Source: a phage. From it: a DNA stretch of 64,000 nucleotides. The stretch lies in NCBI GenBank assembly GCA_036253035.1, contig GCA_036253035.1_4123.1; one strand, 5' to 3'. Below are positions 6,135-24,596 of this stretch, piece by piece; within the stretch, counting starts at the first letter, position 1; every line of letters starts with the position of its first letter. The translations under genes and the position numbers were made by a program. The notes under the pieces were generated by a model. That model saw only the letters and a list, made by a program, of their open reading frames with translations. It had not been told where the DNA came from and searched no databases.

Positions 6135-6554
6135 TCATTTACAGTTTTCTATAACTATTGCACGTTTTAGTATTTTACTTTCATAAACATACTTAAGATG
6201 ACCTTCTTCACGAATACGATTGAACACATATCCTAGTTTATCTTTTAGTACTGAAGCGGTATCAATGTCAAGATTAACTTCAACCCCTCCTGTTAATTTA
6301 ACTTTATATGTAAAGCTAAAAGCATCACCAGATTCAACCAATGGGACTACTTGTTCATACGTATTCAACATAACTCGTTCATCATTAACTAAATTATATA
6401 TTACAATATCACAAGTTTTTACCCCAATTTCCTCTAAGGTAGGAGCATTGTCTACTATAACATCTTTTACTGTATTAGCAACCTGTTTAGCATCTGCTGC
6501 ATATACATTAAAACTAAGAAGTACTAAAATAATACTTAAAAAAATCTTTTTCAT
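6135..6554 (-). CDS. secreted protein (signal peptide)
   Basis: 139 aa; MKKIFLSIILVLLSFNVYA|AD. Confidence 0.6.
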   Translation of the reverse strand: MKKIFLSIILVLLSFNVYAADAKQVANTVKDVIVDNAPTLEEIGVKTCDIVIYNLVNDERVMLNTYEQVVPLVESGDAFSFTYKVKLTGGVEVNLDIDTASVLKDKLGYVFNRIREEGHLKYVYESKILKRAIVIENCK

Positions 6555-6563
6555 TATATATCC

Positions 6564-6887
6564 TTATTTTATTTTACACGTCATATCGGGTTGTGCTGGT
6601 TTATTATTTTTAAAAGGATTAGGTTTTTTATCTTTCTTTTTATCTTTTAATGGTTTTTTGTCTTCTTTTTTATCTTTGTCTTTTTTATTGGTATCAGATT
6701 CAGTTGGAGTATTACATTGTGCTGGTGATGGGTTTGTTGGGTTACAGCTATTGTCTGGTGGGAGTTTTACTTCTTTACAATTGTAAAATAGTAAACTTTT
6801 ATTTGTGGTTAAATTATGAAAACGATAATTTATTTCATTATTATAATAAATTTTTTTAGTACTTTCAATGTCATTACACATTGCCAC
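6564..6887 (-). CDS. hypothetical Lys/Asp-rich low-complexity protein
   Basis: 107 aa, KDKDKKEDKKP repeats. Confidence 0.4.
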   Translation of the reverse strand: MAMCNDIESTKKIYYNNEINYRFHNLTTNKSLLFYNCKEVKLPPDNSCNPTNPSPAQCNTPTESDTNKKDKDKKEDKKPLKDKKKDKKPNPFKNNKPAQPDMTCKIK

Positions 6888-6891
6888 GGAA

Positions 6892-7143
6892 TCACCGAAA
6901 CTCTTTTTCTATTCCGAGTACATCCGTCTTACGCTCAGATAGTATACCTGAAGTATATGAATCTTTGTTGTCAAACGCATTAAATCCAATAGTTCTGTCG
7001 GTGTCGTGTATTATTCCTTTTGTGTATGAGGTAGTATAGAACTCCCCATTTCTGAAATCCTGCCTTGCTACGGAGCAATGATAATCTGCACCATAAGCAG
7101 TACTGGAAAATAATACAATTCCAAATATAATATATTTTTTCAT
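6892..7143 (-). CDS. secreted protein (signal peptide)
   Basis: 83 aa; MKKYIIFGIVLFSSTAYGA. Confidence 0.55.
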   Translation of the reverse strand: MKKYIIFGIVLFSSTAYGADYHCSVARQDFRNGEFYTTSYTKGIIHDTDRTIGFNAFDNKDSYTSGILSERKTDVLGIEKEFR

Positions 7144-7177
7144 TGTAATCCTCTTCTTAATTCCTCTTTTGTATTTA

Positions 7178-7202
7178 CAAAAAAAGGCTGACCGAAGTCA
7201 AC
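7178..7202 (-). terminator. rho-independent terminator, conserved UUCG hairpin
   Basis: aaaaaaaGGCTGACCGAAGTCAACC. Confidence 0.8.
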
Positions 7203-7213
7203 CTTTAGTTTTA

Positions 7214-8767
7214 TCATTTACCGTATTTGCTCATGATGTCCTTTTCCCAATGAGTTACGTTACCGTTATCGTAATCTTTAAAGGAATTATCAAGAGTAGT
7301 TAATGCATATTCGTATGCTTCAGGTGATTCAATGTCAACATCATCAGCACCATTTACTAAATCAGTCCATGCTTTTTGTAGTTTACGAGCATTTTTACCA
7401 ACATTACTTTTAATCCAACTAATGTTTTTGTTGATACTCTTATTATCAGCACCAGCTTTTTTACCAATATCGGATATCCACATCATTAGCTTTTGGAGTT
7501 CATGAATGGAGTTGTCGTTCATTTCACGATCTTTAGCCAATTCTGCTTCCATGCCATCAGTATCAGTACCATCTTTAGAACCTACATCAATTCCATGTTT
7601 AGCTAATAGTTTACCAAGTTCAAAGAATGCTGCCTCAGCAGGGAAGTCATAACCTTTGTCTTTGTAGTTGTTCCATGCACTATCAAACTCATCTACAAAT
7701 CGGTTGGCATAATCTGGATTGTCCACGAGAGCTTTGTACACTGCCATTGCATGTTCAAATCCTTCTTTGTCAGAACCAAACTCTCCCATTTCTGGACGAT
7801 GAATGTAACCATCCATATCAACAGTATCAGGTAAATCATCATGAGATGTTTCAGCATCTTTCTGGTCAACTGCACCTTCTTCATCATCACGCATCAGATA
7901 ACCATCTCGTGTAACCTTCTCACCGTGATCAGCTTCATACTTTTTCATAGTATTGAATGCAGCATCCATTGCAGTTACAAAACGACTCTTTTCACCTTGT
8001 ACATAAGATTTAAGTGCATCGTTAACTGCATCAGATACTAATTTAATCTTATCGTCTTTACCTTCCAGACGGTTTTCTAACTTAGCTAGTACATTCTTAA
8101 CTTGTTGAGCATTAGCACGGTCTTCTTTACCAATACTATCAAATGTTTTAAGTACGCTTTCAAGACTTACTTCCTCTTGTGCAGGCACATCACCTTGTTG
8201 CGTACCTTCAAGTGCACGCATTATAGTACTGAATACTTCAGTTGGTTCAGTACTGGTATTTCCACTCATTGCATCAAGTACAGCTTGTGCTTTGACTTTT
8301 AATTCTTCTTTAGGTACAGATTGCAATTCTTTCACAATACCTTGGATAAGTTGTGGTTTATTAGCAAAAATCTTACCTAACTTATCAGACAATTCTTTGA
8401 CAGGGTTAACCGCCTTTGGTGCTTCTTGTTTTGGTTCTTCTTTCGCAGGAGAAGACTTTTCTTTTTCTTCACGTTCCATATCAGCTAGGCGTTGTTTTTG
8501 TGTAGCATTAAGAAGTCCCAATGAATTAACATAACGTAGCTTTTCTAGCTCAGTCATGTTCTCAGTACTCTTAACTTCACCTGCTTCTGCGTTTGCTTTA
8601 CCAGCTAGACCAGTTCCTTGGTTACGTGATCCACGTGAACCTTGACCTGCTTGATAACTATTTGGTCGGCGGTTGCGTTCACTCCATTTATCCGAGTGAC
8701 CAGCCATGTTACCACCATTTTTATCAGTAAAATTACTTGGCATTTGATTTCTCTCCATAGATTTCAT
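7214..8767 (-). CDS. large hydrophilic protein, unknown function
   Basis: 517 aa, acidic/coiled; shares KYLxSLGLL motif with 9014..9397; TATAAATA-like motif about 25 nt upstream. Confidence 0.7.
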   Translation of the reverse strand: MKSMERNQMPSNFTDKNGGNMAGHSDKWSERNRRPNSYQAGQGSRGSRNQGTGLAGKANAEAGEVKSTENMTELEKLRYVNSLGLLNATQKQRLADMEREEKEKSSPAKEEPKQEAPKAVNPVKELSDKLGKIFANKPQLIQGIVKELQSVPKEELKVKAQAVLDAMSGNTSTEPTEVFSTIMRALEGTQQGDVPAQEEVSLESVLKTFDSIGKEDRANAQQVKNVLAKLENRLEGKDDKIKLVSDAVNDALKSYVQGEKSRFVTAMDAAFNTMKKYEADHGEKVTRDGYLMRDDEEGAVDQKDAETSHDDLPDTVDMDGYIHRPEMGEFGSDKEGFEHAMAVYKALVDNPDYANRFVDEFDSAWNNYKDKGYDFPAEAAFFELGKLLAKHGIDVGSKDGTDTDGMEAELAKDREMNDNSIHELQKLMMWISDIGKKAGADNKSINKNISWIKSNVGKNARKLQKAWTDLVNGADDVDIESPEAYEYALTTLDNSFKDYDNGNVTHWEKDIMSKYGK

Positions 8768-8798
8768 TTTTTTCTCTATGTCTATATTTATAGTATAA

Positions 8799-8822
8799 AG
8801 AAAAGGCTGACCGAAGTCAACC
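8799..8822 (-). terminator. rho-independent terminator, conserved UUCG hairpin
   Basis: gaaaaGGCTGACCGAAGTCAACC. Confidence 0.75.
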
Positions 8823-8830
8823 TTATTTTG

Positions 8831-8944
8831 TTACTTAGATTGTTCTTGTGCAGGTGGATTTACTTTTTGATCCACTACATAGAATACACCACCAACCAGT
8901 ACTGCGGCGATGAGTGCAGCAACTACAAATTTCAAACCTTGCAT
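8831..8944 (-). CDS. small membrane peptide (37 aa), not in ORF track
   Basis: MQGLKFVVAALIAAVLVGGVFYVVDQK..; RBS GAGGT; bracketed by two terminators. Confidence 0.45.
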   Translation of the reverse strand: MQGLKFVVAALIAAVLVGGVFYVVDQKVNPPAQEQSK

Positions 8945-8980
8945 ATATGATACCTCAGTTATATTGAGAAGTTATGATAC

Positions 8981-9006
8981 AACAAAGGGCTGACCTTAGT
9001 CAACCC
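8981..9006 (-). terminator. rho-independent terminator, variant of conserved hairpin
   Basis: GGGCTGACCTTAGTCAACCCC with flanking A/T runs. Confidence 0.7.
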
Positions 9007-9013
9007 CTTTTTA

Positions 9014-9397
9014 TTACTTCTTGAACTTATGTTTTTCACTTTCGATTGCATTCACGATTTCATCATGAATTTTACGAAGATTGTGAGTTTTCTTGAGAGA
9101 ATCATGCAATGCACGGAATGCAGAGTGTACTGTTGCTTTAAAGTGCTCTTTAGGAGTTACTTTAAGTTTCTCGATAATATCACGTACATAGATTGGGTGA
9201 TCCTCAAACACACGATTAAGCTCATGACCTAGTGATTCTAGGCTAAATGCTTTTTCACGGGATGGACGATCATGTGCAAGACTTTGGTCCGGTTTTAGAA
9301 GACCTAGTGAATCTAGATACTTGTGCTTATGTGCATTGTCTAGACCAGAAATATCAACATCATGTGATGGATCTTTCTTATTCCATTTATCAACCAT
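9014..9397 (-). CDS. hypothetical protein sharing N-terminal motif with 517-aa protein
   Basis: 127 aa; KYLDSLGLLKPDQ. Confidence 0.6.
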   Translation of the reverse strand: MVDKWNKKDPSHDVDISGLDNAHKHKYLDSLGLLKPDQSLAHDRPSREKAFSLESLGHELNRVFEDHPIYVRDIIEKLKVTPKEHFKATVHSAFRALHDSLKKTHNLRKIHDEIVNAIESEKHKFKK

Positions 9398-9475
9398 TTT
9401 TATAACTCCTATAAGAGATAAATTTTACTATAATATTTATAGTTCCGTTGTCATTTATATCGAATGACATAAAAC

Positions 9476-9503
9476 ATTATATCATAATAAGAATGGTTGT
9501 CCC
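9476..9503 (-). promoter_or_regulatory. promoter, extended -10 (TGaTATAAT) with weak -35
   Basis: minus GGGACA-16-TATAAT preceded by TG; upstream of 9014..9397. Confidence 0.4.
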
Positions 9504-9512
9504 AAAGTTAAA

Positions 9513-9956
9513 TTAGTACTGATCAAGTTCAGATGTAAAAATGAATGCATCCATGTCTTCCAACGTAAGTTTTAAGTCTGGTACATACTTAAGAATAACG
9601 CACTCTGGCTTCTTAATAGCAGCTTGATAAGCAGCAATGGCAAGGGATTCCAACTGCTGTGCTGTATAATTTTTACGTTCTGCATTAAAAACTTTGTTTT
9701 TGATATCACCACCTGGGAGTTTTTCAAACTCACGCATAACTGCGGCAAGAACATCGTCGGCAGTGTTACTATATACCCATTGGGGTAATTGCATTACATT
9801 ATAAATCACACCACTATCATCCATCAAAGAGATCCATTTATATCCATCACTCGCACTGAACAAACGCCCTTTTAGTACTGTATTATTGGTTAAATTTACA
9901 AATGCAAAAATATCTTGTTCGTTAAGTTCAATACTATTAACATTTACCCAACTCAT
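9513..9956 (-). CDS. hypothetical protein
   Basis: minus ORF 147 aa. Confidence 0.55.
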   Translation of the reverse strand: MSWVNVNSIELNEQDIFAFVNLTNNTVLKGRLFSASDGYKWISLMDDSGVIYNVMQLPQWVYSNTADDVLAAVMREFEKLPGGDIKNKVFNAERKNYTAQQLESLAIAAYQAAIKKPECVILKYVPDLKLTLEDMDAFIFTSELDQY

Positions 9957-9969
9957 TACGATTCCCTAT

Positions 9970-10566
9970 TCATAAATCACGAACAATATTCATTAAACAC
10001 AATTTAGGCTTTATAGCATTCAAAACCCATATGCACTCTTTGTAAGTAGCTATTATATCATCTAAATGCTCAGTCACAATACTTTCTTGAAAATATTCTT
10101 CATCATTGAGCTTTGCTAATTTAGTAACATCACATGTAGGTACTATAGGTCTGGATTGTACACCCATGCCATTATTAATATTAGTAAAATGTACAAAATT
10201 GTATTTCACTACACCTTTATCTAGATTTACTATACATGACAAGTTTTCCAACTCAGTTAGTTCTTTACTACAAGTAACATTAATGAAACCAGTATTATAG
10301 GCTCTATAATCATCTACTGATATCTCAAAATCATTACGCTGAAATATAAGTGAAATGAGTTTGTCCAGTGGTTTTACATTCATATATTTTAATGAATTTA
10401 CGTATGATACTTCAATCTTAGATGAAATTATTTTTTTACTAAGTGCAGTTAATTCTTTGTTAGATTTAACTGTTAAAACAATAGGTTTAAACCTAGAACT
10501 TTTGTTCTTTTTTGATACTTTAAAACGACCTTTACGATTCATAATTTCCTCAATTAATAATTTCAC
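9970..10566 (-). CDS. hypothetical protein
   Basis: minus ORF 198 aa. Confidence 0.6.
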   Translation of the reverse strand: MKLLIEEIMNRKGRFKVSKKNKSSRFKPIVLTVKSNKELTALSKKIISSKIEVSYVNSLKYMNVKPLDKLISLIFQRNDFEISVDDYRAYNTGFINVTCSKELTELENLSCIVNLDKGVVKYNFVHFTNINNGMGVQSRPIVPTCDVTKLAKLNDEEYFQESIVTEHLDDIIATYKECIWVLNAIKPKLCLMNIVRDL

Positions 10567-10771
10567 ATTTAACGTGTGGTTTATATAACATAATTAACCC
10601 ATTTTTAAGTACAATGATTGTTCCTCGGTCAGTAATAGAAACGTTTTTAATTATACTTTTTTTATATGTTTCAACATATTTCTCTTCGTAATTTATACAT
10701 TTAACATATTCTTTTTGTTTAGCACTTACAACAGTACTGAATAATATCAGTACAAGTACTATATATTTCAT
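10550..10771 (-). CDS. small secreted protein
   Basis: 73 aa; signal peptide MKYIVLVLILFSTVVSA. Confidence 0.5.
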   Translation of the reverse strand: MKYIVLVLILFSTVVSAKQKEYVKCINYEEKYVETYKKSIIKNVSITDRGTIIVLKNGLIMLYKPHVKCEIIN

Positions 10772-10823
10772 TACTATACCTTATAAACAAAAAGGAATTC
10801 ATTTAAGAATTCCTATTTTACAA

Positions 10824-11117
10824 TCATTTATCTAACATACCATTGTGTAAACGTTCATATACTTCAGTTCGACGCAAATTCACAATATCTTCTGCGTATT
10901 TTAATGTAAATGCCCATGCTTTTGGATGTACGTTAAGCTTCATACGAATTCGATTTTTCATCAACTCTCCACTTAAACGAATAAATTCGTGTACACCACG
11001 ACTACCGTATTCAGTAATTAAATCATTAATGTACATATCACGAAGAGTTTCATCTGCACATTCTTTAACCATTTCTACGTCAGCGACGATGCTTTCATTA
11101 ACTGAAGTACTGATCAT
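10824..11117 (-). CDS. hypothetical protein
   Basis: minus ORF 97 aa. Confidence 0.5.
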   Translation of the reverse strand: MISTSVNESIVADVEMVKECADETLRDMYINDLITEYGSRGVHEFIRLSGELMKNRIRMKLNVHPKAWAFTLKYAEDIVNLRRTEVYERLHNGMLDK

Positions 11118-11129
11118 TTTTAATTTACC

Positions 11130-12224: not shown

Positions 12225-12248
12225 AAAAAAGGCTGACCGAAGTCAACC
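12225..12248 (-). terminator. rho-independent terminator, conserved UUCG hairpin
   Basis: aaaaaaGGCTGACCGAAGTCAACC; stop codon of 12243..12434 embedded in hairpin. Confidence 0.75.
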
Positions 12249-12434
12249 TTTGTTTTGAAGTTCTTGAACTAATTGTCGTACTTCGTTAATATTATTACAC
12301 TGCTTTACAGTGAAGTAATCATACTTACGACCATAGGTTCTTGGGTCATCACCTTCCATATACTGCTGCACATCAAAGATTTGTAAGTAGGGATGCTGCA
12401 TAACACGAATATTTTCACTTTGATAAATCAACAT
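12243..12434 (-). CDS. hypothetical protein
   Basis: track ORF 12243..12488; internal ATG 12434 avoids overlap with upstream gene. Confidence 0.45.
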   Translation of the reverse strand: MLIYQSENIRVMQHPYLQIFDVQQYMEGDDPRTYGRKYDYFTVKQCNNINEVRQLVQELQNKG

Positions 12435-12438
12435 AATA

Positions 12439-12789
12439 TCAATCCTTATATTTACACAAGCCACCAAAACTAGTTTCTTTAGCACCACGACGCATCATAA
12501 CTAATTTAGCATATTGTGTACCATTACTATCTTCATATACATCTACTTCAATAAACGCTAAGAAGTTAGGGTCTGTGTCGTTAGAAAACTCAGTGAAGCT
12601 AATGTCGCCTACTGTATGCTCTTTAACAAACGTATATGATTGTCCATCAATATATACAATATCTCGATCGTCACTATCACCTTGATAGATATGTTTAATA
12701 TTACCATCTGTACAAACTAAACCTTCCAATGGTTCAGCATATGACAATCCACACATTAACATACATACAAAAAATAAAATAATTTTCAT
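12439..12789 (-). CDS. secreted protein (signal peptide)
   Basis: 116 aa; MKIILFFVCMLMCGLSYA|EP. Confidence 0.55.
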   Translation of the reverse strand: MKIILFFVCMLMCGLSYAEPLEGLVCTDGNIKHIYQGDSDDRDIVYIDGQSYTFVKEHTVGDISFTEFSNDTDPNFLAFIEVDVYEDSNGTQYAKLVMMRRGAKETSFGGLCKYKD

Positions 12790-12791: not shown

Positions 12792-13169
12792 TTATTTTCC
12801 TCCAACGTTAAGTGATTTCTTGTACTGATATTCTTTATAAGTACTATACCATATATCACCAACGTAAATCAAGTACCACGTAGCAGGATAAAGAGCCAAT
12901 CCAGTACTGATGTATACGAACTTTTGGTCAAGGACATCAAATACATGCAGAAGGAAAGTTACTCCCATAATGCAAGAACAAATTAACCATAAGTTATAAG
13001 CCATTGAATCGCAAGCAAAAATAGAATCAAGCTTAGAAATTAGGACATATTTGTTTGTTAAAATAAAATGAATTACTGCAACTAAACAATATCCTGCCAT
13101 AAAAATAGAAATTAAAAAAGACAGAATAATTGGAATATTCAACAACAAAAGTAAAATAGTGTTTACCAT
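12792..13169 (-). CDS. membrane protein
   Basis: 125 aa, multiple hydrophobic helices. Confidence 0.55.
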   Translation of the reverse strand: MVNTILLLLLNIPIILSFLISIFMAGYCLVAVIHFILTNKYVLISKLDSIFACDSMAYNLWLICSCIMGVTFLLHVFDVLDQKFVYISTGLALYPATWYLIYVGDIWYSTYKEYQYKKSLNVGGK

Positions 13170-13180: not shown

Positions 13181-13540
13181 CTATATTTCACAGTGTAAGT
13201 TCAATTTATCTATATCTAGGTCACGGCGTACCGATGAGTCCAAGTAAATTACTATATAGATATCACCATTACCAGTTCTTGGGTCTACAATTAATATTAC
13301 GTTTGCTAATGTACCAGAATCATCTCTATAAGTCGAGATTTTTTTATTACCAATAATACTTTCTACTTTAAAACGATAAATCACGCCATCAACAACTATA
13401 TTTTTACCATTTCTAGGGTCGTTAGTCAATACATGCCACGTTCCCTTAGTACTACGACAATATGTTTCTGCTGCTGCACCATAACTAAAACATGAAAATA
13501 ATGCACACACAAGTGCTATTAATTTTATATAACTTTTCAT
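13181..13540 (-). CDS. secreted protein (signal peptide)
   Basis: 119 aa; MKSYIKLIALVCALFSCFSYGAAA. Confidence 0.55.
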   Translation of the reverse strand: MKSYIKLIALVCALFSCFSYGAAAETYCRSTKGTWHVLTNDPRNGKNIVVDGVIYRFKVESIIGNKKISTYRDDSGTLANVILIVDPRTGNGDIYIVIYLDSSVRRDLDIDKLNLHCEI

Positions 13541-13618: not shown

Positions 13619-13945
13619 TTACATCTTATTCGTGAACTTGAATTTGATAATATCAATCCAAATTTTAACATTTCCTGCAAATAGTGCTTTGATTAGCCAC
13701 ATAATTGCAACAAAGTTCTCAACTAAATCCAAAGTTTTAACTACTGCACCGAGTGGGAAGATAAAACTCAAAACCCATACAATTACTGAAACCACAACGA
13801 CTGTATAGAAAATACGCACAATCGGTGAATCAAGCATAAACAACTCAGAGAACTCTTTTTTATCATTATCATCAGTAATAAAGCATTCGTAAACCAGAAG
13901 CCAAATCAGAATTAAAGACGGAATTGAAATTAGTACTGATAGCAT
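13619..13945 (-). CDS. membrane protein
   Basis: 108 aa hydrophobic. Confidence 0.55.
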   Translation of the reverse strand: MLSVLISIPSLILIWLLVYECFITDDNDKKEFSELFMLDSPIVRIFYTVVVVSVIVWVLSFIFPLGAVVKTLDLVENFVAIMWLIKALFAGNVKIWIDIIKFKFTNKM

Positions 13946-13991: not shown

Positions 13992-14019
13992 ATTATACAG
14001 TACTACTAATGGTTGTCAA
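13992..14019 (-). promoter_or_regulatory. sigma-70-type promoter (TTGACA-16-TATAAT)
   Basis: minus GTTGACAaccattagtagtactgTATAATG. Confidence 0.6.
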
Positions 14020-14245
14020 CTGGTTTTTCTTCAATAAGCATAAGATAACTGATTACGAAGAGTAATACCGACACAATATCAATAACAGTAAAGCTCACGG
14101 GAATGATAATAGAAACCAGTACTAATGCCACGTTTAGCAAGAATACAGTAGTGATATCTACAATCGGTCGTTTAGTGGCTAATGCTACTAGTGTAGGATA
14201 AAACATAAACAATAGTGCAACAACAAAACTTAGTACTAGATACAT
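14006..14245 (-). CDS. small membrane protein
   Basis: 79 aa hydrophobic. Confidence 0.5.
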   Translation of the reverse strand: MYLVLSFVVALLFMFYPTLVALATKRPIVDITTVFLLNVALVLVSIIIPVSFTVIDIVSVLLFVISYLMLIEEKPVDNH

Positions 14246-15581: not shown

Positions 15582-16093
15582 ATATTAAGTAGTTCCATAA
15601 ATTCATCGATCAAGGAAGTTCTAATGCACATAACAAATTCAAAATCAACATCGATAGTATCGAGTAGTTTGAACAACTTTGGTACATTTGGATCATTCAA
15701 CTGGAAGTTATGAATCAAGCTCTGTTGAAACACACTTTCTTCAGTACTGTAATCAATAACAAAATATTCAGCTACACCTGGAGGTGAATAAACATCATAT
15801 AATATCTGACGTTTATTGTGTGTTTCTGAACCAGGACAATATATAAGTTCTATTTCATACGAACCTGCCGAGGATCTATCATAAAACACAATTTCAGTAC
15901 TGATTATTTCACTACCATCACTTCGTTCATGAAAACATACATCGGCATATCGTTTGCCATTTGGCTTCAAAATCTCATGAGTTGTTTTACCATAACATTT
16001 ATCAGTTTCAATGTGAATTTTGTCTTGATATTCAGAACGTCTTACATCATTTCCACGATTAAACAATAAGATCAACAACTCATTAATATCCAT
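15578..16093 (-). CDS. EExxFQxS-motif family protein (outlying member)
   Basis: 171 aa; YSTEESVFQQSLIHNF. Confidence 0.6.
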   Translation of the reverse strand: MDINELLILLFNRGNDVRRSEYQDKIHIETDKCYGKTTHEILKPNGKRYADVCFHERSDGSEIISTEIVFYDRSSAGSYEIELIYCPGSETHNKRQILYDVYSPPGVAEYFVIDYSTEESVFQQSLIHNFQLNDPNVPKLFKLLDTIDVDFEFVMCIRTSLIDEFMELLNI

Positions 16094-16293
16094 TATTTCG
16101 CCTCGATAACCTTAAGGTTAACAAAATCACCTTTTACTTTCATGCATTTGAATTCAGTGCGAGTTTCATCCCCACTATCGCGAGGCCAATGAGTAGCAGA
16201 GTAGCACTGGTCTGGTGTTTTATATACACCTTCACCAATAGTACGAGTGATTTCACCATTGGTGAGAACTACTGCGAGATATAAAGTAAACAT
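16093..16293 (-). CDS. hypothetical protein
   Basis: track ORF 16093..16350; ATG 16293 with AAGG RBS. Confidence 0.45.
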   Translation of the reverse strand: MFTLYLAVVLTNGEITRTIGEGVYKTPDQCYSATHWPRDSGDETRTEFKCMKVKGDFVNLKVIEAK

Positions 16294-16303: not shown

Positions 16304-16450
16304 TTAGAATAATTTATTAATAATAATAGCACCCAACGCAAGAACTGCAATAATTACAGATACCCACATTACTGCATTCACTGTACCAGTTAGTTCTTTA
16401 TCAAACTCCCTGCACTTCTTACGGTACTCTTCCCACTCTTTGTTATTCAC
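16304..16450 (-). CDS. small C-terminal-TM peptide (48 aa, GTG start), not in ORF track
   Basis: AGGAG 7 nt before GTG; ..VNAVMWVSVIIAVLALGAIIINKLF. Confidence 0.35.
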   Translation of the reverse strand: MNNKEWEEYRKKCREFDKELTGTVNAVMWVSVIIAVLALGAIIINKLF

Positions 16451-16662
16451 ACTGCCGCTCCTAATAGGTCGGTAGCTTTCTTCAGTACTACGTCAATTGT
16501 TTCCAGTACTGCACCTTTGTGTTCAATTGATACAATATTATTATAAGTATCAAGGTCCAAGTACTCCATATATTCAGTTTTGAATACACGAACATCAGTA
16601 CTGGTGATTTTAAGATCGCAACCTTTATCCCAGATGACCTGCATCATTTCATTGGTAGTCAT
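16447..16662 (-). CDS. hypothetical protein
   Basis: minus ORF 71 aa. Confidence 0.5.
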   Translation of the reverse strand: MTTNEMMQVIWDKGCDLKITSTDVRVFKTEYMEYLDLDTYNNIVSIEHKGAVLETIDVVLKKATDLLGAAV

Positions 16663-16937
16663 TATTCAACCTTATCATAAACAAGTTTGTGAGTGCTCAG
16701 TACTTTGTTGAGATGACCAGGGCATTCATATACATACAATCGCTCCTGACGTTTTTCCCAACCACCACAGATACGACCTGATTGTGTGCATATTTCATAC
16801 TCGTTAATAAAAGACTTACCTGTGAATGTACAATCCTGACGAACTAAGTCTTTTGCACTAAACCTGCCGTCATCATTACATGCTGTAAGAAACATTGTAC
16901 AGAATACAAAGACAACTGTCAATAGTTTTTTAATCAT
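16662..16937 (-). CDS. lipoprotein
   Basis: 91 aa; lipobox LTAC after signal peptide. Confidence 0.55.
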   Translation of the reverse strand: MIKKLLTVVFVFCTMFLTACNDDGRFSAKDLVRQDCTFTGKSFINEYEICTQSGRICGGWEKRQERLYVYECPGHLNKVLSTHKLVYDKVE

Positions 16938-17302
16938 TGAACATCACCCCAACGGAAACCTTTCATATAATTCAAATTCACCTCAACGAGTTCATGTGTT
17001 TTTGTACACCAAATGGAGAGAGTTTTTGTAACATCACCAGGTTCAGATTCATAATTCACACAATAACCTTCAATGCGTAGAGTTTTGTTAGTCCAATGTT
17101 CCCACTCAATCCAAATTTCATTTGGATAATAAACCATATCTTCTTTGAACGTATGGAATTGATCCATTGGTAAATGACCTTTAACTTCAATTACTTCAGC
17201 ACTTCGAGCCAGTTTTTCAAGCTTGTACTTTATTTCAGCAAGATATTCTTCATCATTCAGACGAGTGAATAAATCTGTTGCACGGGTTGTATCAAGGCTC
17301 AT
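16934..17302 (-). CDS. hypothetical protein
   Basis: minus ORF 122 aa. Confidence 0.55.
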   Translation of the reverse strand: MSLDTTRATDLFTRLNDEEYLAEIKYKLEKLARSAEVIEVKGHLPMDQFHTFKEDMVYYPNEIWIEWEHWTNKTLRIEGYCVNYESEPGDVTKTLSIWCTKTHELVEVNLNYMKGFRWGDVQ

Positions 17303-17550
17303 TGTTGTACTCCATTAATCACTGAAGTGTTGATTCGTGTTTTTCCGCTAGTGTATCCAGTACTGGTGTTTGCATTAGGACAATAAACTGTATACAACGT
17401 TGCACCAGCACCTTCCTGTTGCATACGATAAATCTTACATCCTGCTTCTTTTAATTCAGTAGGGAGTTCAAAATCACTTGTGCGTTCTTTGGTTGAAGCA
17501 TCACATGCAGTGAGTAAAAATGCGACGAGTACTGCTACAATGTATTTCAT
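17299..17550 (-). CDS. lipoprotein
   Basis: 83 aa; MKYIVAVLVAFLLTAC (lipobox). Confidence 0.55.
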   Translation of the reverse strand: MKYIVAVLVAFLLTACDASTKERTSDFELPTELKEAGCKIYRMQQEGAGATLYTVYCPNANTSTGYTSGKTRINTSVINGVQQ

Positions 17551-17951: not shown

Positions 17952-17980
17952 ATTATACTGCTATTATTCAGTACTGTCAA
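17952..17980 (-). promoter_or_regulatory. sigma-70-type promoter (TTGACA-17-TATAAT)
   Basis: minus TTGACAgtactgaataatagcagTATAATG. Confidence 0.65.
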
Positions 17981-18424: not shown

Positions 18425-18643
18425 TTAATCAATGATTTTATATTCACGATGACCATAGAATCCAGCCTCAAGGATGCGATTACCATCAGCATCTTCCAAA
18501 TCCCACCCACGGGATGTTTCGGCAATAATAGTCATGATGTGACCTCTTGGGAAAATGCCACTCAGAGTGGATACATCCTCAAGTAATTGAACTTTCTTTC
18601 CAACATTGGAATTCGGTTTAAACATTTTATGGCCCTTATTCAT
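18425..18643 (-). CDS. hypothetical protein
   Basis: minus ORF 72 aa. Confidence 0.5.
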   Translation of the reverse strand: MNKGHKMFKPNSNVGKKVQLLEDVSTLSGIFPRGHIMTIIAETSRGWDLEDADGNRILEAGFYGHREYKIID

Positions 18644-18818
18644 TGATCACATCAAGTACTTTATCCAGCTTTTTACCAATGCTTTCCTTTGGTTTCTCAC
18701 CATTCTGGAATACATTAGAACTGCAATAGTCAGGACGTGTATTAGGAAACTTCTCCTGCATCCAACTATGACCATACACACCCAGCATAATACCAACAAT
18801 AAGAATGATAATTTGCAT
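18636..18818 (-). CDS. small membrane protein
   Basis: 60 aa; N-terminal TM helix. Confidence 0.45.
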   Translation of the reverse strand: MQIIILIVGIMLGVYGHSWMQEKFPNTRPDYCSSNVFQNGEKPKESIGKKLDKVLDVINE

Positions 18819-18895: not shown

Positions 18896-19105
18896 TTATT
18901 CTTTCTCACCAACAAACAGTTTAACTTTTGTATTACTGTTATAACACCACATCTGTTCTTTGTTAATAGACATCCAGATATTTTTATTGACCTGTTCGTA
19001 GGTACTATCACGAACAGAAATACATTGATTCATGGAATTCATTGGAGTGATTTGTACACCGCTTTGCATGGAAAGAGCTACTACTAAAAAGATTACTGAA
19101 TTCAT
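18896..19105 (-). CDS. small secreted protein
   Basis: 69 aa; signal-peptide-like N-terminus. Confidence 0.5.
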   Translation of the reverse strand: MNSVIFLVVALSMQSGVQITPMNSMNQCISVRDSTYEQVNKNIWMSINKEQMWCYNSNTKVKLFVGEKE

Positions 19106-19704: not shown

Positions 19705-19723
19705 ACTTTTACTTCATCCCATA

Positions 19724-19755
19724 AAAAAAGGTTGGCATAAGCCAACCTTTTTTCT
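19724..19755. terminator. bidirectional rho-independent terminator
   Basis: aaaaaaaGGTTGGCataaGCCAACCtttttt. Confidence 0.8.
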
Positions 19756-20721: not shown

Positions 20722-20742
20722 TTACATCTCCTAATGACGAAA

Positions 20743-21240
20743 TCAAAATCGATATACATTAATATTATCATCTGTGAAGCAATCATGGTTATGCACATCC
20801 ATGAAAGTACTAAACACTTTATCATATAAAGTTGTATGTTCTTCATGAATAGCAGCATCTAGCATGTATTCTCCACCACTACCCATAAAGAAAGTGTAGT
20901 CTTCATGTAGATATTCAAGTTTTTTAATAAACTTTCCTTTAGTTAAAATCATATGAATAACATAATCTTTAGAAAGAAGCACACAATGGCAACTTAACTT
21001 TCTGTCAGGTATAACTGGTACTTTATTAATTAACCAATCCAGTACTTTATCAATTTCACTTACTGACCCACTAGCACTGAATAAACGGTCATGTACATAT
21101 AAAGTTTTTTGATTAACAACTCCATATTGATATTTTGGTCTTAGTGGGAAAAAACCAAATAAGTTTCGTGGTATAGTTGACGTAACTCTAGAATCGGTAA
21201 TCAATAAATTTAATCGTTTATCAATATAAACAGTTGTCAT
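20743..21240 (-). CDS. hypothetical protein
   Basis: minus ORF 165 aa. Confidence 0.6.
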   Translation of the reverse strand: MTTVYIDKRLNLLITDSRVTSTIPRNLFGFFPLRPKYQYGVVNQKTLYVHDRLFSASGSVSEIDKVLDWLINKVPVIPDRKLSCHCVLLSKDYVIHMILTKGKFIKKLEYLHEDYTFFMGSGGEYMLDAAIHEEHTTLYDKVFSTFMDVHNHDCFTDDNINVYRF

Positions 21241-21241
21241 A

Positions 21242-21661
21242 TTAAACCTTATCTAAGAATTTATCGTATATATAAAATTCTTTATCGGTGAATACATTAA
21301 TTCTAGTATCGAATCTTTGCATCGTGTTCATATACAATGAACTTTTTAAATAAAAATACAAAGCAACAAATTCTGATATATGCATATTCTTTTTATTGTT
21401 ACATAAATTCTTTAGCATTTTGATGCTATCAAATTCTTCTTTATCAAATCTGTACTGGTAAAAATTGTATCTATTGGAACGGCACTCATAGATACGAAGT
21501 GCCATTATATCAATACATTCTTTAGATTTACAGTACTTATTCAATACGTCATAATCACCCGTACATAATGCTACAAAGATTTTATGTGCAAGCGTAGCTT
21601 TGCCCTCAATCGTATAATAGCCAAAGAATTTAATGATTAAGTACTGAATGAATGTAATCAT
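21242..21661 (-). CDS. hypothetical protein
   Basis: minus ORF 139 aa. Confidence 0.55.
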   Translation of the reverse strand: MITFIQYLIIKFFGYYTIEGKATLAHKIFVALCTGDYDVLNKYCKSKECIDIMALRIYECRSNRYNFYQYRFDKEEFDSIKMLKNLCNNKKNMHISEFVALYFYLKSSLYMNTMQRFDTRINVFTDKEFYIYDKFLDKV

Positions 21662-21666
21662 TTGAT

Positions 21667-21927
21667 TTAGAATTTCTCCGAAATTACTAGAGTGTCATCA
21701 TAATCTTCTGCAATCTCATGAAGAACTTTTAAGTTACTTTCACCAGAAACGCTTTGTACTTCGTTCAAAAGATAGTTTAGATCAACTTTAGTTACTTTTT
21801 CTGAATCAAATACACAGAAAGTCAATTCAGCGTTTGGACAGATCTTCTTCAGATTATCAGCAACAACTTGTTTGAAGTTGAAAGATGGGGAAGCAACCAG
21901 GTTAACTGCAACGAGAATAGATTTCAT
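21667..21927 (-). CDS. hypothetical protein
   Basis: minus ORF 86 aa. Confidence 0.5.
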   Translation of the reverse strand: MKSILVAVNLVASPSFNFKQVVADNLKKICPNAELTFCVFDSEKVTKVDLNYLLNEVQSVSGESNLKVLHEIAEDYDDTLVISEKF

Positions 21928-22001
21928 AATGTTTTCCTTTTTAGCTGATAATTAAATTAGGAGCACATTGTACTCCATATTATTTGTTATGTAAAATACT
22001 T

Positions 22002-22253
22002 TTAGATACCAAGTGCAGTAGATAACTCTTTACGTTTGTTATATGAATCAGATTCAATCTTACTTTTCTTGTTGAAAAGGGATTCAATATCCTTATAGAT
22101 TGCTTCGATAGATTTAGTTACTACCCATTCTGATTCTTGAAGCATACCTTGGAGTCGTGCGTACTCAACTTTAATAGTACTGCGAAGTTCTTCACAAACT
22201 TCTTCATTCTTAATTAGTGCAGCACTAAGTTCTTTGACCTTATCGATGTTCAT
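22002..22253 (-). CDS. hypothetical coiled-coil protein
   Basis: minus ORF 83 aa. Confidence 0.5.
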   Translation of the reverse strand: MNIDKVKELSAALIKNEEVCEELRSTIKVEYARLQGMLQESEWVVTKSIEAIYKDIESLFNKKSKIESDSYNKRKELSTALGI

Positions 22254-22287
22254 AAGTTCCTTACTCTAATTTGTTTTTAACAAAATA

Positions 22288-22316
22288 ATTATATATAACA
22301 TACTAAATTATGTCAA
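22288..22316 (-). promoter_or_regulatory. sigma-70-type promoter (TTGACA-17-TATAAT)
   Basis: plus attata(22288-22293)..tgtcaa(22311-22316). Confidence 0.6.
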
Positions 22317-22738
22317 GTATTTTTAGTACCTTCTTCTGCCATTTTTGTGATATACCAATTAAGTACTGATTTGTGTACCATAAAAAATGTGAATGCAAAT
22401 ATAGCAATAGCTGCTGATGTAACACTATTAGATAATGACCCAAGTTGGATGTTAGTACCTAAAATAACAATAAATGGATACAACACAATTAATCTACTGT
22501 AAGGTTCGTCTCCAGTATCACGGAGAAATACAAGCCTTTCATGATCAGTATCCATTGTGACAATTGAACAGAACATAAGTGCAGACATAAGAGCAATACC
22601 AATTTGTGCTACATTAGAAATTGTAAACCACAAAGGATTTAAACCATATGAAATATTATTTTCTGTACAGTAGTAACCAAACGAATTGAATGCACAAACT
22701 AAAAATACAAAAATACAAATCTTATTATAACCTCTCAT
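22313..22738 (-). CDS. membrane protein
   Basis: 141 aa, several TM helices. Confidence 0.55.
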   Translation of the reverse strand: MRGYNKICIFVFLVCAFNSFGYYCTENNISYGLNPLWFTISNVAQIGIALMSALMFCSIVTMDTDHERLVFLRDTGDEPYSRLIVLYPFIVILGTNIQLGSLSNSVTSAAIAIFAFTFFMVHKSVLNWYITKMAEEGTKNT

Positions 22739-23157
22739 TTGTTTAGCTCCGTTAATTTTCGTTTAACTTCTAGATCATGAAACTCATCTGCATATGAGTT
22801 TTGAACAGTTCTGATGTATTCCAACATAACAAACATAGTTCCACATACCCATAGATATGTATAGTAATCAAATACAAATGCATATAACATACACGGTACT
22901 AAAATGAAAGTGTAAACAAAACTATATCGGGTAGTTCCAAATACTTTCAGATATAACAAACGTCGATGATCACGGGCAAATGTATTGATGCACACTGAAA
23001 ATGTAATTAATGTATACCATGAAATACCCTGAATTAAACCTGAAACATTTAAAAGTTTATGTTCATCGGAAAACCCCAGTGCATTTAGCACTGGAGCCAT
23101 AACCCAACCAATAATACTAATAAGAAAAAGATATTTTGCATTACTTAGTGTGAACAT
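22735..23157 (-). CDS. membrane protein
   Basis: 140 aa, several TM helices. Confidence 0.55.
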   Translation of the reverse strand: MFTLSNAKYLFLISIIGWVMAPVLNALGFSDEHKLLNVSGLIQGISWYTLITFSVCINTFARDHRRLLYLKVFGTTRYSFVYTFILVPCMLYAFVFDYYTYLWVCGTMFVMLEYIRTVQNSYADEFHDLEVKRKLTELNK

Positions 23158-23158
23158 A

Positions 23159-23617
23159 TTACTTTAGTCCCCATGCTTTTTTGATTGCATCAACAGAGTT
23201 TTGGTCCACTACTTCCTTTTTTTCTGATGTAGTTTGAAGTTTATTAATTACATATTCCTTTGCATCTTTTTCTATCATAAATTTACCATCAACCAACACA
23301 CCAAAAACTTTAGAATTTCGGGCTGGATATGGATTAATTTCATCAAGAGTACGGACTTTCTTATCAACTATAATGGCTTTGATGTAACCAGTTTCAAGTA
23401 CTGTTGTAATCACAGTCATTTCAATTGCAACTGGTGAATCTTCCCAATACGCAATCCATTTAGTAAAGCTACGATCAGGTGAATCTTTTGTGCATTTTAA
23501 TTTAATTGCACTATTAAAAATGTATTGTTTAAAATTGTCATCGACAACTTCACTAATACTAAAATAACCTTCACGCTCTTCAACATTACGTTTGAAATTT
23601 GTAGCTAATACATCCAT
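23159..23617 (-). CDS. hypothetical protein
   Basis: minus ORF 152 aa. Confidence 0.6.
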   Translation of the reverse strand: MDVLATNFKRNVEEREGYFSISEVVDDNFKQYIFNSAIKLKCTKDSPDRSFTKWIAYWEDSPVAIEMTVITTVLETGYIKAIIVDKKVRTLDEINPYPARNSKVFGVLVDGKFMIEKDAKEYVINKLQTTSEKKEVVDQNSVDAIKKAWGLK

Positions 23618-23649
23618 TTTCCATCCCCCTTGGGTTACTTGGTGTGTTA

Positions 23650-23678
23650 ATTATAATACTAAGAATCTTTGTTGTCAA
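23650..23678 (-). promoter_or_regulatory. sigma-70-type promoter (TTGACA-17-TATAAT)
   Basis: plus attata(23650-23655)..tgtcaa(23673-23678). Confidence 0.6.
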
Positions 23679-24135
23679 ACTTTTCCCTCAAATATTTTTC
23701 TATTAATCTAATTTGTGTTGGTGGTAAGATAAAATAATCGTACATAGATTTACTACCATGTATCGAACAACCTACACTAATACTATAATCATATGGATAT
23801 AAGTATATTGGGTCTTGTATATCAGGTATGAAAACTATTCTTGATATATTACCATTTCCTATTCTTACTTGGACGTTATCATTATTATTAATATAATTTC
23901 TTATACAGTACTCAATTATACCATTTACTTTAGAATCATAACCATAATTTTTATATTCAGGAAAAATGAAATAGCGTTCATGGTATAGATATGAGCATAG
24001 TAATGCTGGGAAAAAATTCCAAAAACCTTCATGCTTTGCAATTGTTTGTGCATATTTAAAATGATTAGCATTACTAAAAATATTATACAGCACAAAATAC
24101 ACAAATGGACTAACCAACAACACTATTGTTAACAT
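23659..24135 (-). CDS. hypothetical protein with N-terminal TM helix
   Basis: minus ORF 158 aa. Confidence 0.55.
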   Translation of the reverse strand: MLTIVLLVSPFVYFVLYNIFSNANHFKYAQTIAKHEGFWNFFPALLCSYLYHERYFIFPEYKNYGYDSKVNGIIEYCIRNYINNNDNVQVRIGNGNISRIVFIPDIQDPIYLYPYDYSISVGCSIHGSKSMYDYFILPPTQIRLIEKYLREKFDNKDS

Positions 24136-24596
24136 CAGAAGCCTCTGTATTTTTCATACACTTCAACGCATTCCATGATTTTGTCATCGTCCATCATATC
24201 ATAGCCTTGTAGAAATTCTTCTTTATCAACCTTCCCTGCCATCATATCTGTGTCAGAAATTCTGGAGTCATAGAAGGAATACATATCTTTATAGTACTGG
24301 TTTTTGTGCTGCTCAATCTTTACTTTAGCATATCCAGCACAAAATGAAGGAGATTTAACAACTTCCCATTTATGCTTCTTGATGGGTTTATCATTAGCAT
24401 ATTTTTCCCTGTATGTCTGACGATAACGTTCACGCATTTCAGGCATGTATTCGTCAGCAGTACGTTTGGGGGGAGTTTTACCAGTCCCAATAGTTTTAAT
24501 AGTTTGACGTTGTTCTTCTGCGTGTACTGGGGAAATAAAACATGATGTGCCAAACAGTACTGCTACGATAACCATAAAATTCTTAAACATAATCAA
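24135..24596 (-). CDS. secreted protein (signal peptide)
   Basis: 153 aa; MIMFKNFMVIVAVLFGTSCFISPVHA|EE. Confidence 0.6.
   Translation of the reverse strand: MIMFKNFMVIVAVLFGTSCFISPVHAEEQRQTIKTIGTGKTPPKRTADEYMPEMRERYRQTYREKYANDKPIKKHKWEVVKSPSFCAGYAKVKIEQHKNQYYKDMYSFYDSRISDTDMMAGKVDKEEFLQGYDMMDDDKIMECVEVYEKYRGF

What the first reader, a model, noticed from the sequence alone, without database searches (positions are those of the whole stretch)
6135..24596. Many small secreted proteins and lipoproteins
At least ten small genes carry signal peptides or lipoboxes (6135, 6892, 10550, 12439, 13181, 16662, 17299, 18896, 24135 and others), implying a large set of periplasm- or envelope-targeted phage products.
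Basis: partly seen in the sequence, partly recalled or inferred. Interest (0 to 1): 0.4.

Follow-up and report, generated by a model that had tools for sequence, protein, structure and literature searches.

The report
Early cluster of exported phage proteins
An 18-kb stretch of an E. coli jumbo phage (121Q/PBECO4 type) holds most of the phage's genes for small proteins exported to the periplasm or membranes, probably made early to alter the infected cell's envelope, though their functions are untested.

The parts
6135..6554 (-). 139-aa exported protein. SPase-I signal peptide MKKIFLSIILVLLSFNVYA|ADA; mature part 120 aa with 2 Cys.
   Evidence: Orthologues in Ec-M-J and Turkey5 at 40% identity keep the signal peptide and 2 Cys. 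Absent from UE-S1.
6892..7143 (-). 83-aa exported protein. Signal peptide ...STAYG|ADY; 1 Cys in the mature part.
   Evidence: phrog_28901. Lies in the same hairpin-bracketed cassette as 6135.
6106..6127 (-). PeSL-like composite terminator/promoter hairpin; downstream border of cassette 6135-7143.
7184..7205 (-). PeSL-like composite terminator/promoter hairpin; upstream border of cassette 6135-7143.
   Evidence: UE-S1 has a single copy of the element and no cassette.
8831..8944 (-). 37-aa single-pass membrane peptide.
   Evidence: annotated 'membrane protein' in Ec-M-J.
10550..10771 (-). 73-aa exported protein. Signal peptide ...TVVSA|KQK; mature part 56 aa with 2 Cys.
12228..12251 (-). PeSL-like hairpin/terminator that closes the envelope module; it also carries a TTGACT-17-TATAAT promoter.
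12439..12789 (-). Periplasmic beta-barrel B: 116 aa, signal peptide ...LSYA|EPL, Cys26/Cys112 invariant in the family alignment.
12792..13169 (-). 125-aa membrane protein with 2-3 TM segments (heuristic finds two non-overlapping segments, three peaks), lying between the two barrel genes.
   Evidence: Same position in RaK2, Turkey5 and Ec-M-J.
13181..13540 (-). Periplasmic beta-barrel A, paralogue of 12439: 119 aa, signal peptide ...FSYG|AAA, 2 conserved Cys.
13619..13945 (-). 3-TM membrane protein of 108 aa; first gene after the perfect promoter.
13992..14019 (-). Perfect sigma-70 consensus promoter (TTGACA-16-TATAAT), its -35 hexamer 74 nt upstream of the 13945 start.
   Evidence: Equivalent promoter present in Ec-M-J and UE-S1.
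14006..14245 (-). 3-TM membrane protein of 79 aa; first gene of the conserved five-gene module.
16093..16293 (-). 66-aa protein with a short hydrophobic N-terminus and 2 conserved Cys. Export ambiguous.
16304..16450 (-). 48-aa protein with a C-terminal TM segment.
16662..16937 (-). 91-aa lipoprotein. Lipobox LTA|C, +2 Asn; 4 further Cys in the mature part.
   Evidence: 100% identical to the Ec-M-J orthologue.
17299..17550 (-). 83-aa lipoprotein of family phrog_902. Lipobox LTA|C, +2 Asp; conserved C38 and C57.
17952..17980 (-). Perfect sigma-70 consensus promoter heading the unit that contains both lipoprotein genes.
18636..18818 (-). 60-aa protein with an N-terminal TM segment or uncharged signal-like segment (ambiguous).
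18896..19105 (-). 69-aa protein with a conserved short hydrophobic N-terminus and 2 Cys. Ambiguous signal peptide.
22313..23157 (-). Two adjacent multi-pass membrane proteins (141 and 140 aa).
23659..24135 (-). 158-aa protein with an N-terminal TM anchor.
24135..24590 (-). 151-aa exported protein. Signal peptide ...SPVHA|EEQ; 2 Cys in the mature part.

Best explanation
This is the envelope-directed part of the early, hyperplastic gene region of a 121Q/PBECO4-type jumbo phage. Host sigma-70 RNA polymerase transcribes it soon after infection from consensus promoters. The host Sec translocon, signal peptidases I and II and the lipoprotein pathway then deliver at least eight small disulfide-bonded proteins to the periplasm or to a membrane leaflet, and about ten small proteins to the inner membrane.

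Their most likely job is to change the infected cell's envelope in the phage's favour. The leading candidate is exclusion of superinfecting phages at the injection or cell-wall-penetration step, or protection from outside attack, as T4 does with its early proteins Sp and Imm and T5 with its early lipoprotein Llp.

The core is a five-gene module, TM-TM-barrel-TM-barrel (14245 to 12439), conserved as far as Klebsiella phage RaK2. The rest are accessory cassettes gained, lost and swapped between related phages, partly at terminator/promoter hairpins.

Shown here: the signal peptides, their clustering and conservation, the promoter and terminator layout, the mosaicism, and the barrel fold at the level of a model. 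Inferred: actual export, early timing, and any exclusion or inhibitor activity.
For: Identity of the phage.

Signal peptides and statistics.

Conservation of signal peptide and Cys pairs across diverged orthologues.

Timing:
- There are 12 perfect TTGACA-N16-18-TATAAT sites, all on the coding strand (0.21 expected). Ten lie 58-130 nt and two about 200-280 nt upstream of a gene start.
- The T4-type late motif TATAAATA occurs only twice on this strand, both times in front of the two genes annotated as virion structural.
- The paper on the related phage CBB places RpoD-like promoters in the short-ORF region and takes that region to be early (PMC5259590).

Plasticity:
- Six PeSL-like hairpins, with the 18-nt core exact in all five relatives examined, including RaK2 and CBB.
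- Cassette 6135-7143 is bracketed by two copies and is absent from UE-S1, which keeps one copy.
- There is a block 99-100% identical to a phage whose sigma factor is only 60% identical.
- This matches the PeSL shuffling model for T4-like phages (PMC4122927).

Host-interface signature: envelope proteins diverge faster than their neighbours (42 vs 68%, 78 vs 91%, 83 vs 90% median identity; p = 0.0009, 0.005 and 0.02).

Module synteny in RaK2, Turkey5 and Ec-M-J.

Precedents: T4 Spackle is an early periplasmic inhibitor of the tail lysozyme (PMC7677548). T5 Llp is made shortly after infection and is a lipoprotein of the outer membrane's inner leaflet.
Against: - No protein in the set has a significant sequence match to any characterised exclusion, immunity, lysis or inhibitor family (Pfam, NCBIfam, PDB).
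- The Cor and TrbK matches of 17299 are weak (E 0.005), fall below cut-offs and lie mainly over the signal peptide.
- The PliC resemblance does not hold across methods. Foldseek ranks Tp0751, lipocalins and avidins first, with no PliC in the top 50. hhalign against MliC gives 0.09% probability. The MliC motifs SxSGAxY and SKGDEA are absent.
- The model of 17299 is of low confidence (pLDDT 62).
- Promoter assignment rests on consensus only. No transcript, proteome or fractionation data for these genes were found.
- SignalP/LipoP could not be run.
Confidence: 0.55

Rival explanations
1. The barrel pair, and possibly other members, are periplasmic inhibitors or immunity proteins against peptidoglycan hydrolases. 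Targets could be tail lysozymes of incoming phages, T6SS or bacteriocin effectors from neighbouring bacteria, or host autolysins. They would keep the infected cell intact until the phage's own timed lysis. This is a more specific sub-case of the main explanation.
Against: Foldseek does not recover PliC/MliC. There is no sequence or profile similarity and the lysozyme-binding motifs are absent. Eight-stranded up-down barrels are common and serve many functions. In 1.84 billion representative proteins the family connects only to itself.
Confidence: 0.2
2. Some of the set are lysis-timing components expressed from this region: antiholin- or RI-like periplasmic sensors, spanin-like lipoproteins, or holin-like membrane proteins.
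For: Small membrane proteins, periplasmic proteins and lipoproteins are the usual building blocks of lysis cassettes. 17299 has a faint Rz-like spanin PHROG match (E 0.067).
Against: No endolysin or holin family is found in the stretch. The Rak2-group endolysin gene named in the CBB paper is 121Q gp532, whereas this region of 121Q is numbered about 150-201, so it appears to lie elsewhere. Neither lipoprotein gene overlaps or abuts a type-II membrane i-spanin partner, since 16934-17302 has no TM segment. The promoters are sigma-70 type and there is no late motif.
Confidence: 0.1
3. The N-termini are chance hydrophobic stretches produced by AT-rich codon usage or by mis-called starts, not real export signals.
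For: The genome is 29-37% G+C, which enriches for F, I, L, K and N. Some database annotations start 12439, 13181 and 18896 downstream of the signal peptide.
Against: Antisense ORFs 0/74, reversed proteins 0/144 and shuffled proteins 0.04% pass the same test. The rest of the same genome gives 3 hits in 333 kb. A Shine-Dalgarno motif lies upstream of the long start in every case. The n/h/c architecture is preserved while the sequence changes.
Confidence: 0.03

Closest known systems
T4 early superinfection-exclusion pair Sp (Spackle, gp61.3) and Imm
   Same: These are early genes of a large lytic myovirus. Sp is a small periplasmic protein with a cleaved export signal and a disulfide, and it blocks incoming phage tail lysozyme. 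Imm is a small inner-membrane protein (PMC7677548). The module here likewise combines small membrane proteins with small disulfide-bonded periplasmic proteins behind a sigma-70-type (presumed early) promoter.
   Different: Sp is an alpha-helical bundle, whereas the proteins here are beta-barrels. There is no sequence or PHROG match to Sp or Imm. The genes here form one syntenic five-gene module with two paralogous barrels. No activity has been shown.
MliC/PliC family of periplasmic or lipoprotein inhibitors of c-type lysozyme (Pfam MliC, COG3895), and relatives PhiA and ACP
   Different: There is no Pfam hit, hhalign probability is 0.09%, the lysozyme-binding motifs are absent, and Foldseek prefers lipocalin/avidin-type barrels.
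Phage exclusion lipoproteins: T5 Llp and phi80/N15/T1 Cor (and plasmid TrbK)
   Same: 17299 and 16662 are small lipoproteins lying behind sigma-70-type (presumed early) promoters, with intramolecular Cys pairs. 17299 has weak matches to Cor (phrog_1119, E 0.005) and TrbK (E 0.006), and its orthologue is labelled Cor in the vB_Ec-M-J record.
   Different: The matches are below threshold and centred on the signal peptide. There is no match to solved Llp by sequence profile or by fold, though the model was poor. The genes are not next to a receptor-binding protein gene. The +2 Asp predicts inner-membrane retention, whereas Llp acts at the outer membrane's inner leaflet; this rests on the established +2 sorting rule, taken from general knowledge.
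Hyperplastic regions and PeSL promoter-early stem-loops of T4-like phages (Arbiol 2010; Comeau 2014)
   Same: Short ORFan genes lie in an early region. A conserved hairpin terminator overlaps a sigma-70 promoter. Indels are bracketed by copies of the element. Identity between relatives is mosaic.
   Different: It is found here in Rak2-like jumbo phages with their own element sequence (GGTTGACTTCGGTCAGCC), which is conserved exactly across three genera. The cargo is unusually rich in exported proteins.

Membership tests
Sec/SPase-I secreted proteins (general) | Positively charged n-region, 8-15 residue hydrophobic core, small residues at -3/-1, and no further TM segment | tested here: met
   Met for 6135, 6892, 10550, 12439, 13181 and 24135 by an in-house heuristic with controls and conserved in orthologues. 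Curated predictors (SignalP) were not available.
Bacterial lipoproteins (SPase-II/Lgt substrates) | Lipobox [LVI][ASTVI][GAS]C at the end of the h-region, with Cys invariant in the family | tested here: met
   16662 and 17299 both have LTAC. The Cys is invariant in 38 of 38 members of the 17299 family and in the 16662 orthologues found in four relatives. The lipobox-like sites in 13181 and 24135 are not conserved, so these are not lipoproteins.
MliC/PliC lysozyme inhibitors | Sequence membership (Pfam MliC model; conserved SxSGAxY and YxxxTKG/SKGDEA motifs) | tested here: not met
   No Pfam hit at E<=0.1. hhalign against E. coli MliC gives 0.09% probability. The motifs are absent from alignment A5.
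MliC/PliC lysozyme inhibitors | 8-stranded antiparallel beta-barrel fold with a disulfide linking the terminal strands, in the periplasm | tested here: inconclusive
MliC/PliC lysozyme inhibitors | Binds and inhibits lysozyme | not testable with these tools
   Requires a biochemical assay.
Cor superinfection-exclusion lipoproteins (phrog_1119) | Significant match to the family profile over the mature domain | tested here: inconclusive
   E 0.0046 for 17299 over residues 1-48 only. 3 of 5 family members match, best E 0.0013. The proper family, phrog_902, matches at E 2.6e-14.
Cor superinfection-exclusion lipoproteins (phrog_1119) | Blocks FhuA-dependent phage adsorption | not testable with these tools
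   Requires plating assays.
T5 Llp | Sequence or fold similarity to the solved Llp structure | tested here: not met
   A PDB profile search with alignment A1 found no Llp. Foldseek on the 17299 model gave nothing at E<3, but the model is of low confidence, so the fold part of the test is weak.
T4 Imm / Sp | Match to the Imm or Sp families | tested here: not met
   PHROG scans of all exported and membrane proteins return only small families of unknown function.
PeSL composite terminator/promoter elements | GC-rich hairpin plus T-run overlapping a -35/-10 sigma-70 promoter; repeated; flanking indels between related phages | tested here: met
   Six copies, with TTGACT in the stem and TATAAT 17 nt downstream in several of them. 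The 6135-7143 indel relative to UE-S1 is bracketed by copies.

The most novel reading that the evidence does not exclude
The conserved TM-TM-barrel-TM-barrel module (14245-12439), sigma-70-driven and shared by Escherichia Asteriusviruses and Klebsiella Alcyoneusviruses, is a previously unrecognised envelope complex of jumbo phages. Its PliC-like periplasmic barrels would neutralise peptidoglycan hydrolases or the injection machinery of competing phages. The surrounding hairpin-flanked cassettes of secreted proteins and lipoproteins would form a rapidly exchanged arsenal for phage-phage competition at the cell envelope. This would include the family of 17299, which occurs in 576 phage records and has no known function.
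Probability: 0.2. Interest if true: 0.65.

Novelty: new member of a known kind. Interest (0 to 1): 0.4.

Why it matters
Rak2-like jumbo phages are candidates for phage therapy, yet most of their 600 or so genes have no assigned function. This stretch contains 7 of the 10 genome-wide strict signal-peptide hits counted in a 352-kb close relative. That gives a short, testable list of candidates for superinfection exclusion, envelope protection or receptor modification:
- eight exported proteins;
- one five-gene module conserved across genera;
- one lipoprotein family found in 576 phage records.

Such functions affect how phages behave in cocktails and how they compete. If the barrels inhibit cell-wall hydrolases, they would be a second, structurally unrelated solution to the problem that T4 solves with Spackle.

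Tried and rejected
- Pfam, NCBIfam and PHROG scans of all candidates returned only PHROGs of unknown function and sub-threshold noise.
- PDB sequence searches for 17299 (as a profile), 6135, 24135 and 16662 found nothing.
- The 17299 structure model, built from a 38-sequence alignment, was poor (pLDDT 62), and its Foldseek search was empty.
- A profile search with the barrel family against 1.84 billion representatives gave only about nine genuine small relatives. The long repeat proteins it also returned showed no related Pfam domain and look like noise. No bridge to MliC was found.
- hhalign of the barrel family against MliC was negative.
- The two membrane proteins of the module are not detectable paralogues of each other.
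- The 'immunity to superinfection' labels in the vB_Ec-M-J record could not be reproduced with PHROGs, so I did not use them as evidence.
- The gene neighbourhood of 17299 homologues in rV5-like, FelixO1-like and T5-like Vibrio phages shows only small hypothetical genes, with no annotated receptor-binding protein nearby.
- The overall count of sigma-70-like matches is not above the shuffled expectation (92 vs 102). Only the perfect-consensus subset is informative.
- Literature searches found no study of these proteins.
Full report
**What the window is.** Megablast of 6000-25000 against the phage collection gives 100% coverage at 96-97% identity to Escherichia phages slurp01, G17, Sharanji, 121Q and PBECO4. 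These are genomes of 348-370 kb in the genus Asteriusvirus, part of the Rak2-like jumbo myoviruses. Almost all genes are on the - strand. In published annotations of this stretch nearly every gene is 'hypothetical protein'. The exceptions are a protein kinase, an RpoD-like sigma factor (19756-20721), two virion structural proteins and a membrane protein; in some relatives there is also an HNH endonuclease that this window lacks.

**Checking the observation.** All nine named ORFs are present. No signal-peptide predictor was available, so I wrote an explicit heuristic. It scores n-region charge, the best 8-residue hydrophobic core, the -3/-1 rule or a lipobox, and absence of TM segments in the mature part.
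- Under strict settings it accepts 6135, 6892, 10550, 12439, 13181, 16662, 17299 and 24135.
- Each has a Shine-Dalgarno motif in front of the start that includes the signal peptide. For 24135 the real start is the ATG at 24590.
- 18896 has a short, uncharged but conserved hydrophobic N-terminus and stays ambiguous.
- True lipoboxes are limited to 16662 and 17299 (both LTA|C). The lipobox-like sites in 13181 and 24135 disappear in orthologues.
- The stretch also has single-pass or ambiguous proteins (8831, 16093, 16304, 18636, 23659) and five multi-pass membrane proteins (12792, 13619, 14006, 22313, 22735).
- Roughly a third of the genes here are therefore envelope-directed.

**Is it more than chance?**
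- Strict hits are 8 of 45 genes inside versus 1 of 99 outside (Fisher p=4e-4). Loose hits are 12/45 versus 3/99 (p=6e-5).
- The same test gives 0/74 on antisense ORFs, 0/144 on reversed proteins and 0.04% on shuffled proteins.
- On an E. coli sample it finds MliC and SlyB and rejects seven non-exported proteins.
- I assembled the unannotated 351,992-bp relative OR844650.1, to which the window maps collinearly at 97-99%. Of 488 genes called, only 10 pass the strict test, and 7 of them lie in the equivalent 18.5 kb (binomial p=1.2e-7).
- Multi-pass membrane genes are also largely confined to the two ends of that record, with one further 20-kb bin (240-260 kb) holding two.

**Are the signals real?** I fetched the syntenic region, anchored on the sigma factor, from UE-S1, vB_Ec-M-J, Turkey5, RaK2 and CBB. 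Their sigma-factor identities to the window are 84, 60, 57, 44 and 35%.
- Orthologues keep the n/h/c architecture and the cysteine pairs although the sequence drifts. For example, the 6135 orthologues at 40% identity read MKKTILSVIGTVLFMVTSVASA|ATV and MLKVIFRSISSLLLMISSVCYA|NEV.
- An even number of Cys in most mature domains fits periplasmic disulfide formation.

**Regulation.**
- The window has 12 perfect TTGACA-N16-18-TATAAT sites, all on the coding strand, against 0.21 expected. Ten lie 58-130 nt upstream of a gene start and two lie about 200-280 nt upstream.
- Five are in this stretch and head units that contain the exported genes: 25524, 23678, 17980, 14019, plus 18328 and 22316.
- The T4-type late motif TATAAATA occurs only twice on this strand in 64 kb. 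Both copies sit directly upstream of the two genes annotated as virion structural, 7214-8767 and 9014-9397.
- The exported genes are therefore most likely transcribed early by host RNA polymerase. This is an inference from consensus only. It agrees with what was proposed for the related phage CBB (PMC5259590).

**Plasticity.**
- A 22-nt hairpin, AAGGTTGAC-TTCG-GTCAGCCTT, followed by a T-run and usually a TATAAT 17 nt after its TTGACT, occurs six times (653, 1197, 6106, 7184, 8803, 12229; none expected).
- Its 18-nt core is exact in all five relatives, including Klebsiella RaK2 and Pectobacterium CBB. In the 352-kb relative it occurs only in the first 12 kb.
- This is the architecture of the PeSL elements that mediate cassette shuffling in T4-like phages (PMC4122927).
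- In line with that model, the cassette 7143-6135 (two exported proteins plus a Lys-rich ORF) lies between two copies. It is missing from UE-S1, where a single copy joins the flanking genes.
- Identity to relatives is mosaic. Genes 14930-16937, including lipoprotein 16662, are 99-100% identical to vB_Ec-M-J, whose sigma factor is only 60% identical. Lipoprotein 17299 is 100% identical to UE-S1.
- Envelope-directed proteins diverge faster than their neighbours. Median identity is 42 vs 68% to Turkey5 (p=0.0009), 78 vs 91% to vB_Ec-M-J (p=0.005) and 83 vs 90% to UE-S1 (p=0.02).

**The conserved core.**
- 12439 and 13181 are weak paralogues. Both subfamilies exist from E. coli phages to RaK2, with two invariant Cys near the ends of the mature domain.
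- With three small polytopic membrane proteins (2-3 predicted TM segments each) they form a module in the order TM (14006), TM (13619), barrel (13181), TM (12792), barrel (12439). RaK2, Turkey5 and vB_Ec-M-J have the same order.
- In this window a perfect promoter at 14019-13992 precedes the second gene, and the module ends at the hairpin 12251-12228.
- The family is tiny: 16 clusters among 5.8 billion proteins, and about nine genuine representatives among 1.84 billion. None has a Pfam domain.
- An AlphaFold2 model of mature 12439 is fairly confident (pLDDT 81.9, pTM 0.72) and shows eight beta-strands.
- Foldseek puts Tp0751, lipocalins and avidins first, with no PliC in the top 50.
- hhalign against E. 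coli MliC is negative and the MliC motifs are absent, although the two Cys bracket the barrel as in MliC.
- I conclude the fold is a small periplasmic calycin-type barrel. Its nearest solved relatives may be peptidoglycan-hydrolase inhibitors, but it is not a demonstrable member of that family.

**The lipoproteins.**
- 17299 belongs to phrog_902 (E 2.6e-14).
- tblastn finds the family in 576 phage records: T5-like Vibrio phages, Felixounavirus, rV5-like phages, and Serratia and Pectobacterium phages. In the records listed it is always annotated 'hypothetical'. Its neighbours are small hypothetical genes; no receptor-binding protein gene is annotated nearby.
- In 38 sequences the lipobox Cys, P30 and C38 are invariant, and V55, C57 and P58 nearly so.
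- Matches to Cor (E 0.005) and to the plasmid entry-exclusion lipoprotein TrbK (E 0.006) are sub-threshold and mostly cover the signal peptide.
- No PDB relative was found and the structure model was poor.
- The +2 residue is Asp in the jumbo-phage members. By the classical +2 rule (general knowledge, not tested here) this favours inner-membrane retention and so argues against a Llp/Cor-like plug on an outer-membrane receptor.
- 16662 (+2 Asn, four further Cys) is confined to Asteriusviruses.

**Interpretation.** The best-supported reading is an early, host-transcribed, recombinationally plastic region whose cargo is unusually rich in proteins exported to the periplasm and membranes.
- By analogy with T4 Sp/Imm (PMC7677548) and T5 Llp, and given the fast divergence and cassette exchange, the most likely role is remodelling or protecting the envelope of the infected cell. 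Superinfection exclusion is the leading specific function.
- A peptidoglycan-hydrolase-inhibitor role for the barrels is a plausible but weakly supported sub-hypothesis.
- Lysis control is less likely. No lysis enzymes lie here, there are no spanin partners and there is no late promoter.
- The artefact explanation is excluded by the controls.
- No function is demonstrated for any of these proteins.

**Verdict.** In kind it matches known early hyperplastic-region genes of large lytic phages, so it is a new member of a known kind. It has two notable components: a module conserved across genera with PliC-like barrels, and a widespread uncharacterised phage lipoprotein family. Interest is moderate (0.4).

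Noticed in passing
window 653-674, 1197-1218, 6106-6127, 7184-7205, 8803-8824, 12229-12250 (- strand): Six copies of a composite hairpin terminator/sigma-70 promoter, AAGGTTGACTTCGGTCAGCCTT plus a T-run plus TATAAT. The 18-nt core is exact in RaK2, CBB, Turkey5, UE-S1 and vB_Ec-M-J. In a 352-kb relative it is restricted to the first 12 kb. It resembles the PeSL elements of T4-like phages, which as far as I could find have not been described for Rak2-like phages.
   Followed up: partly
window 8785-8792 and 9434-9441 (- strand): The T4-type late-promoter motif TATAAATA occurs only twice on the coding strand of the 64-kb window. Both copies are immediately upstream of the two genes annotated as virion structural proteins (7214-8767 and 9014-9397), which are embedded in an otherwise sigma-70-driven region.
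   Followed up: partly
window 3370-56356 (- strand), 12 sites: Twelve perfect TTGACA-N16-18-TATAAT promoters, all on the coding strand (0.21 expected). Several share the spacer ending CAGTACTG before TATAAT, which hints at an extended conserved early-promoter motif.
   Followed up: partly
window 14930-16937: A block of genes 99-100% identical at protein level to phage vB_Ec-M-J, whose sigma factor and many other genes are only 60-90% identical. This points to recent recombination between divergent Asteriusviruses.
   Followed up: partly
window 18818-18896: SHEFM2K, 121Q and vB_Ec-M-J carry an HNH endonuclease gene plus a small ORF between the orthologues of 18636-18818 and 18896-19105. This window lacks them, leaving a 78-nt gap. 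The endonuclease looks like a mobile insertion.
   Followed up: no
window 34357-36291: A tandem family of five 54-64 aa proteins beginning MTHEEWM, interleaved with tRNA genes. Seven tRNAs lie at 32002-35829: Thr, Asn, Met, Ser x2, Arg, Gly.
   Followed up: no
window 4043-5078: Three adjacent paralogous 3-TM membrane proteins, just upstream of the stated region. The envelope-rich zone therefore extends down to about 2.3 kb (2288-2539 is also a membrane protein).
   Followed up: no
window 31202-31985, 47838-48654, 49871-50299, 43566-44557: A dispersed paralogous family of about 120-180 aa cytoplasmic proteins that share a C-terminal region (blastp E 1e-9 to 1e-2).
   Followed up: no
proteins P0001-P0043 (family of window 17299-17550): All but one of the family members (42 of 43) carry a precomputed Pfam tag PF16225. 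My hmmscan of five members against Pfam-A at E<=1 does not return that family. The name and status of PF16225 could not be resolved here.
   Followed up: partly
L003 (vB_Ec-M-J) 31221-31457, 33246-33509, 33506-33802: vB_Ec-M-J has extra genes in this region. Two are annotated 'immunity to superinfection', which PHROG scans did not reproduce. Next to them is a further exported 98-aa protein with a faint resemblance to the barrel family (hhalign E 0.02).
   Followed up: partly
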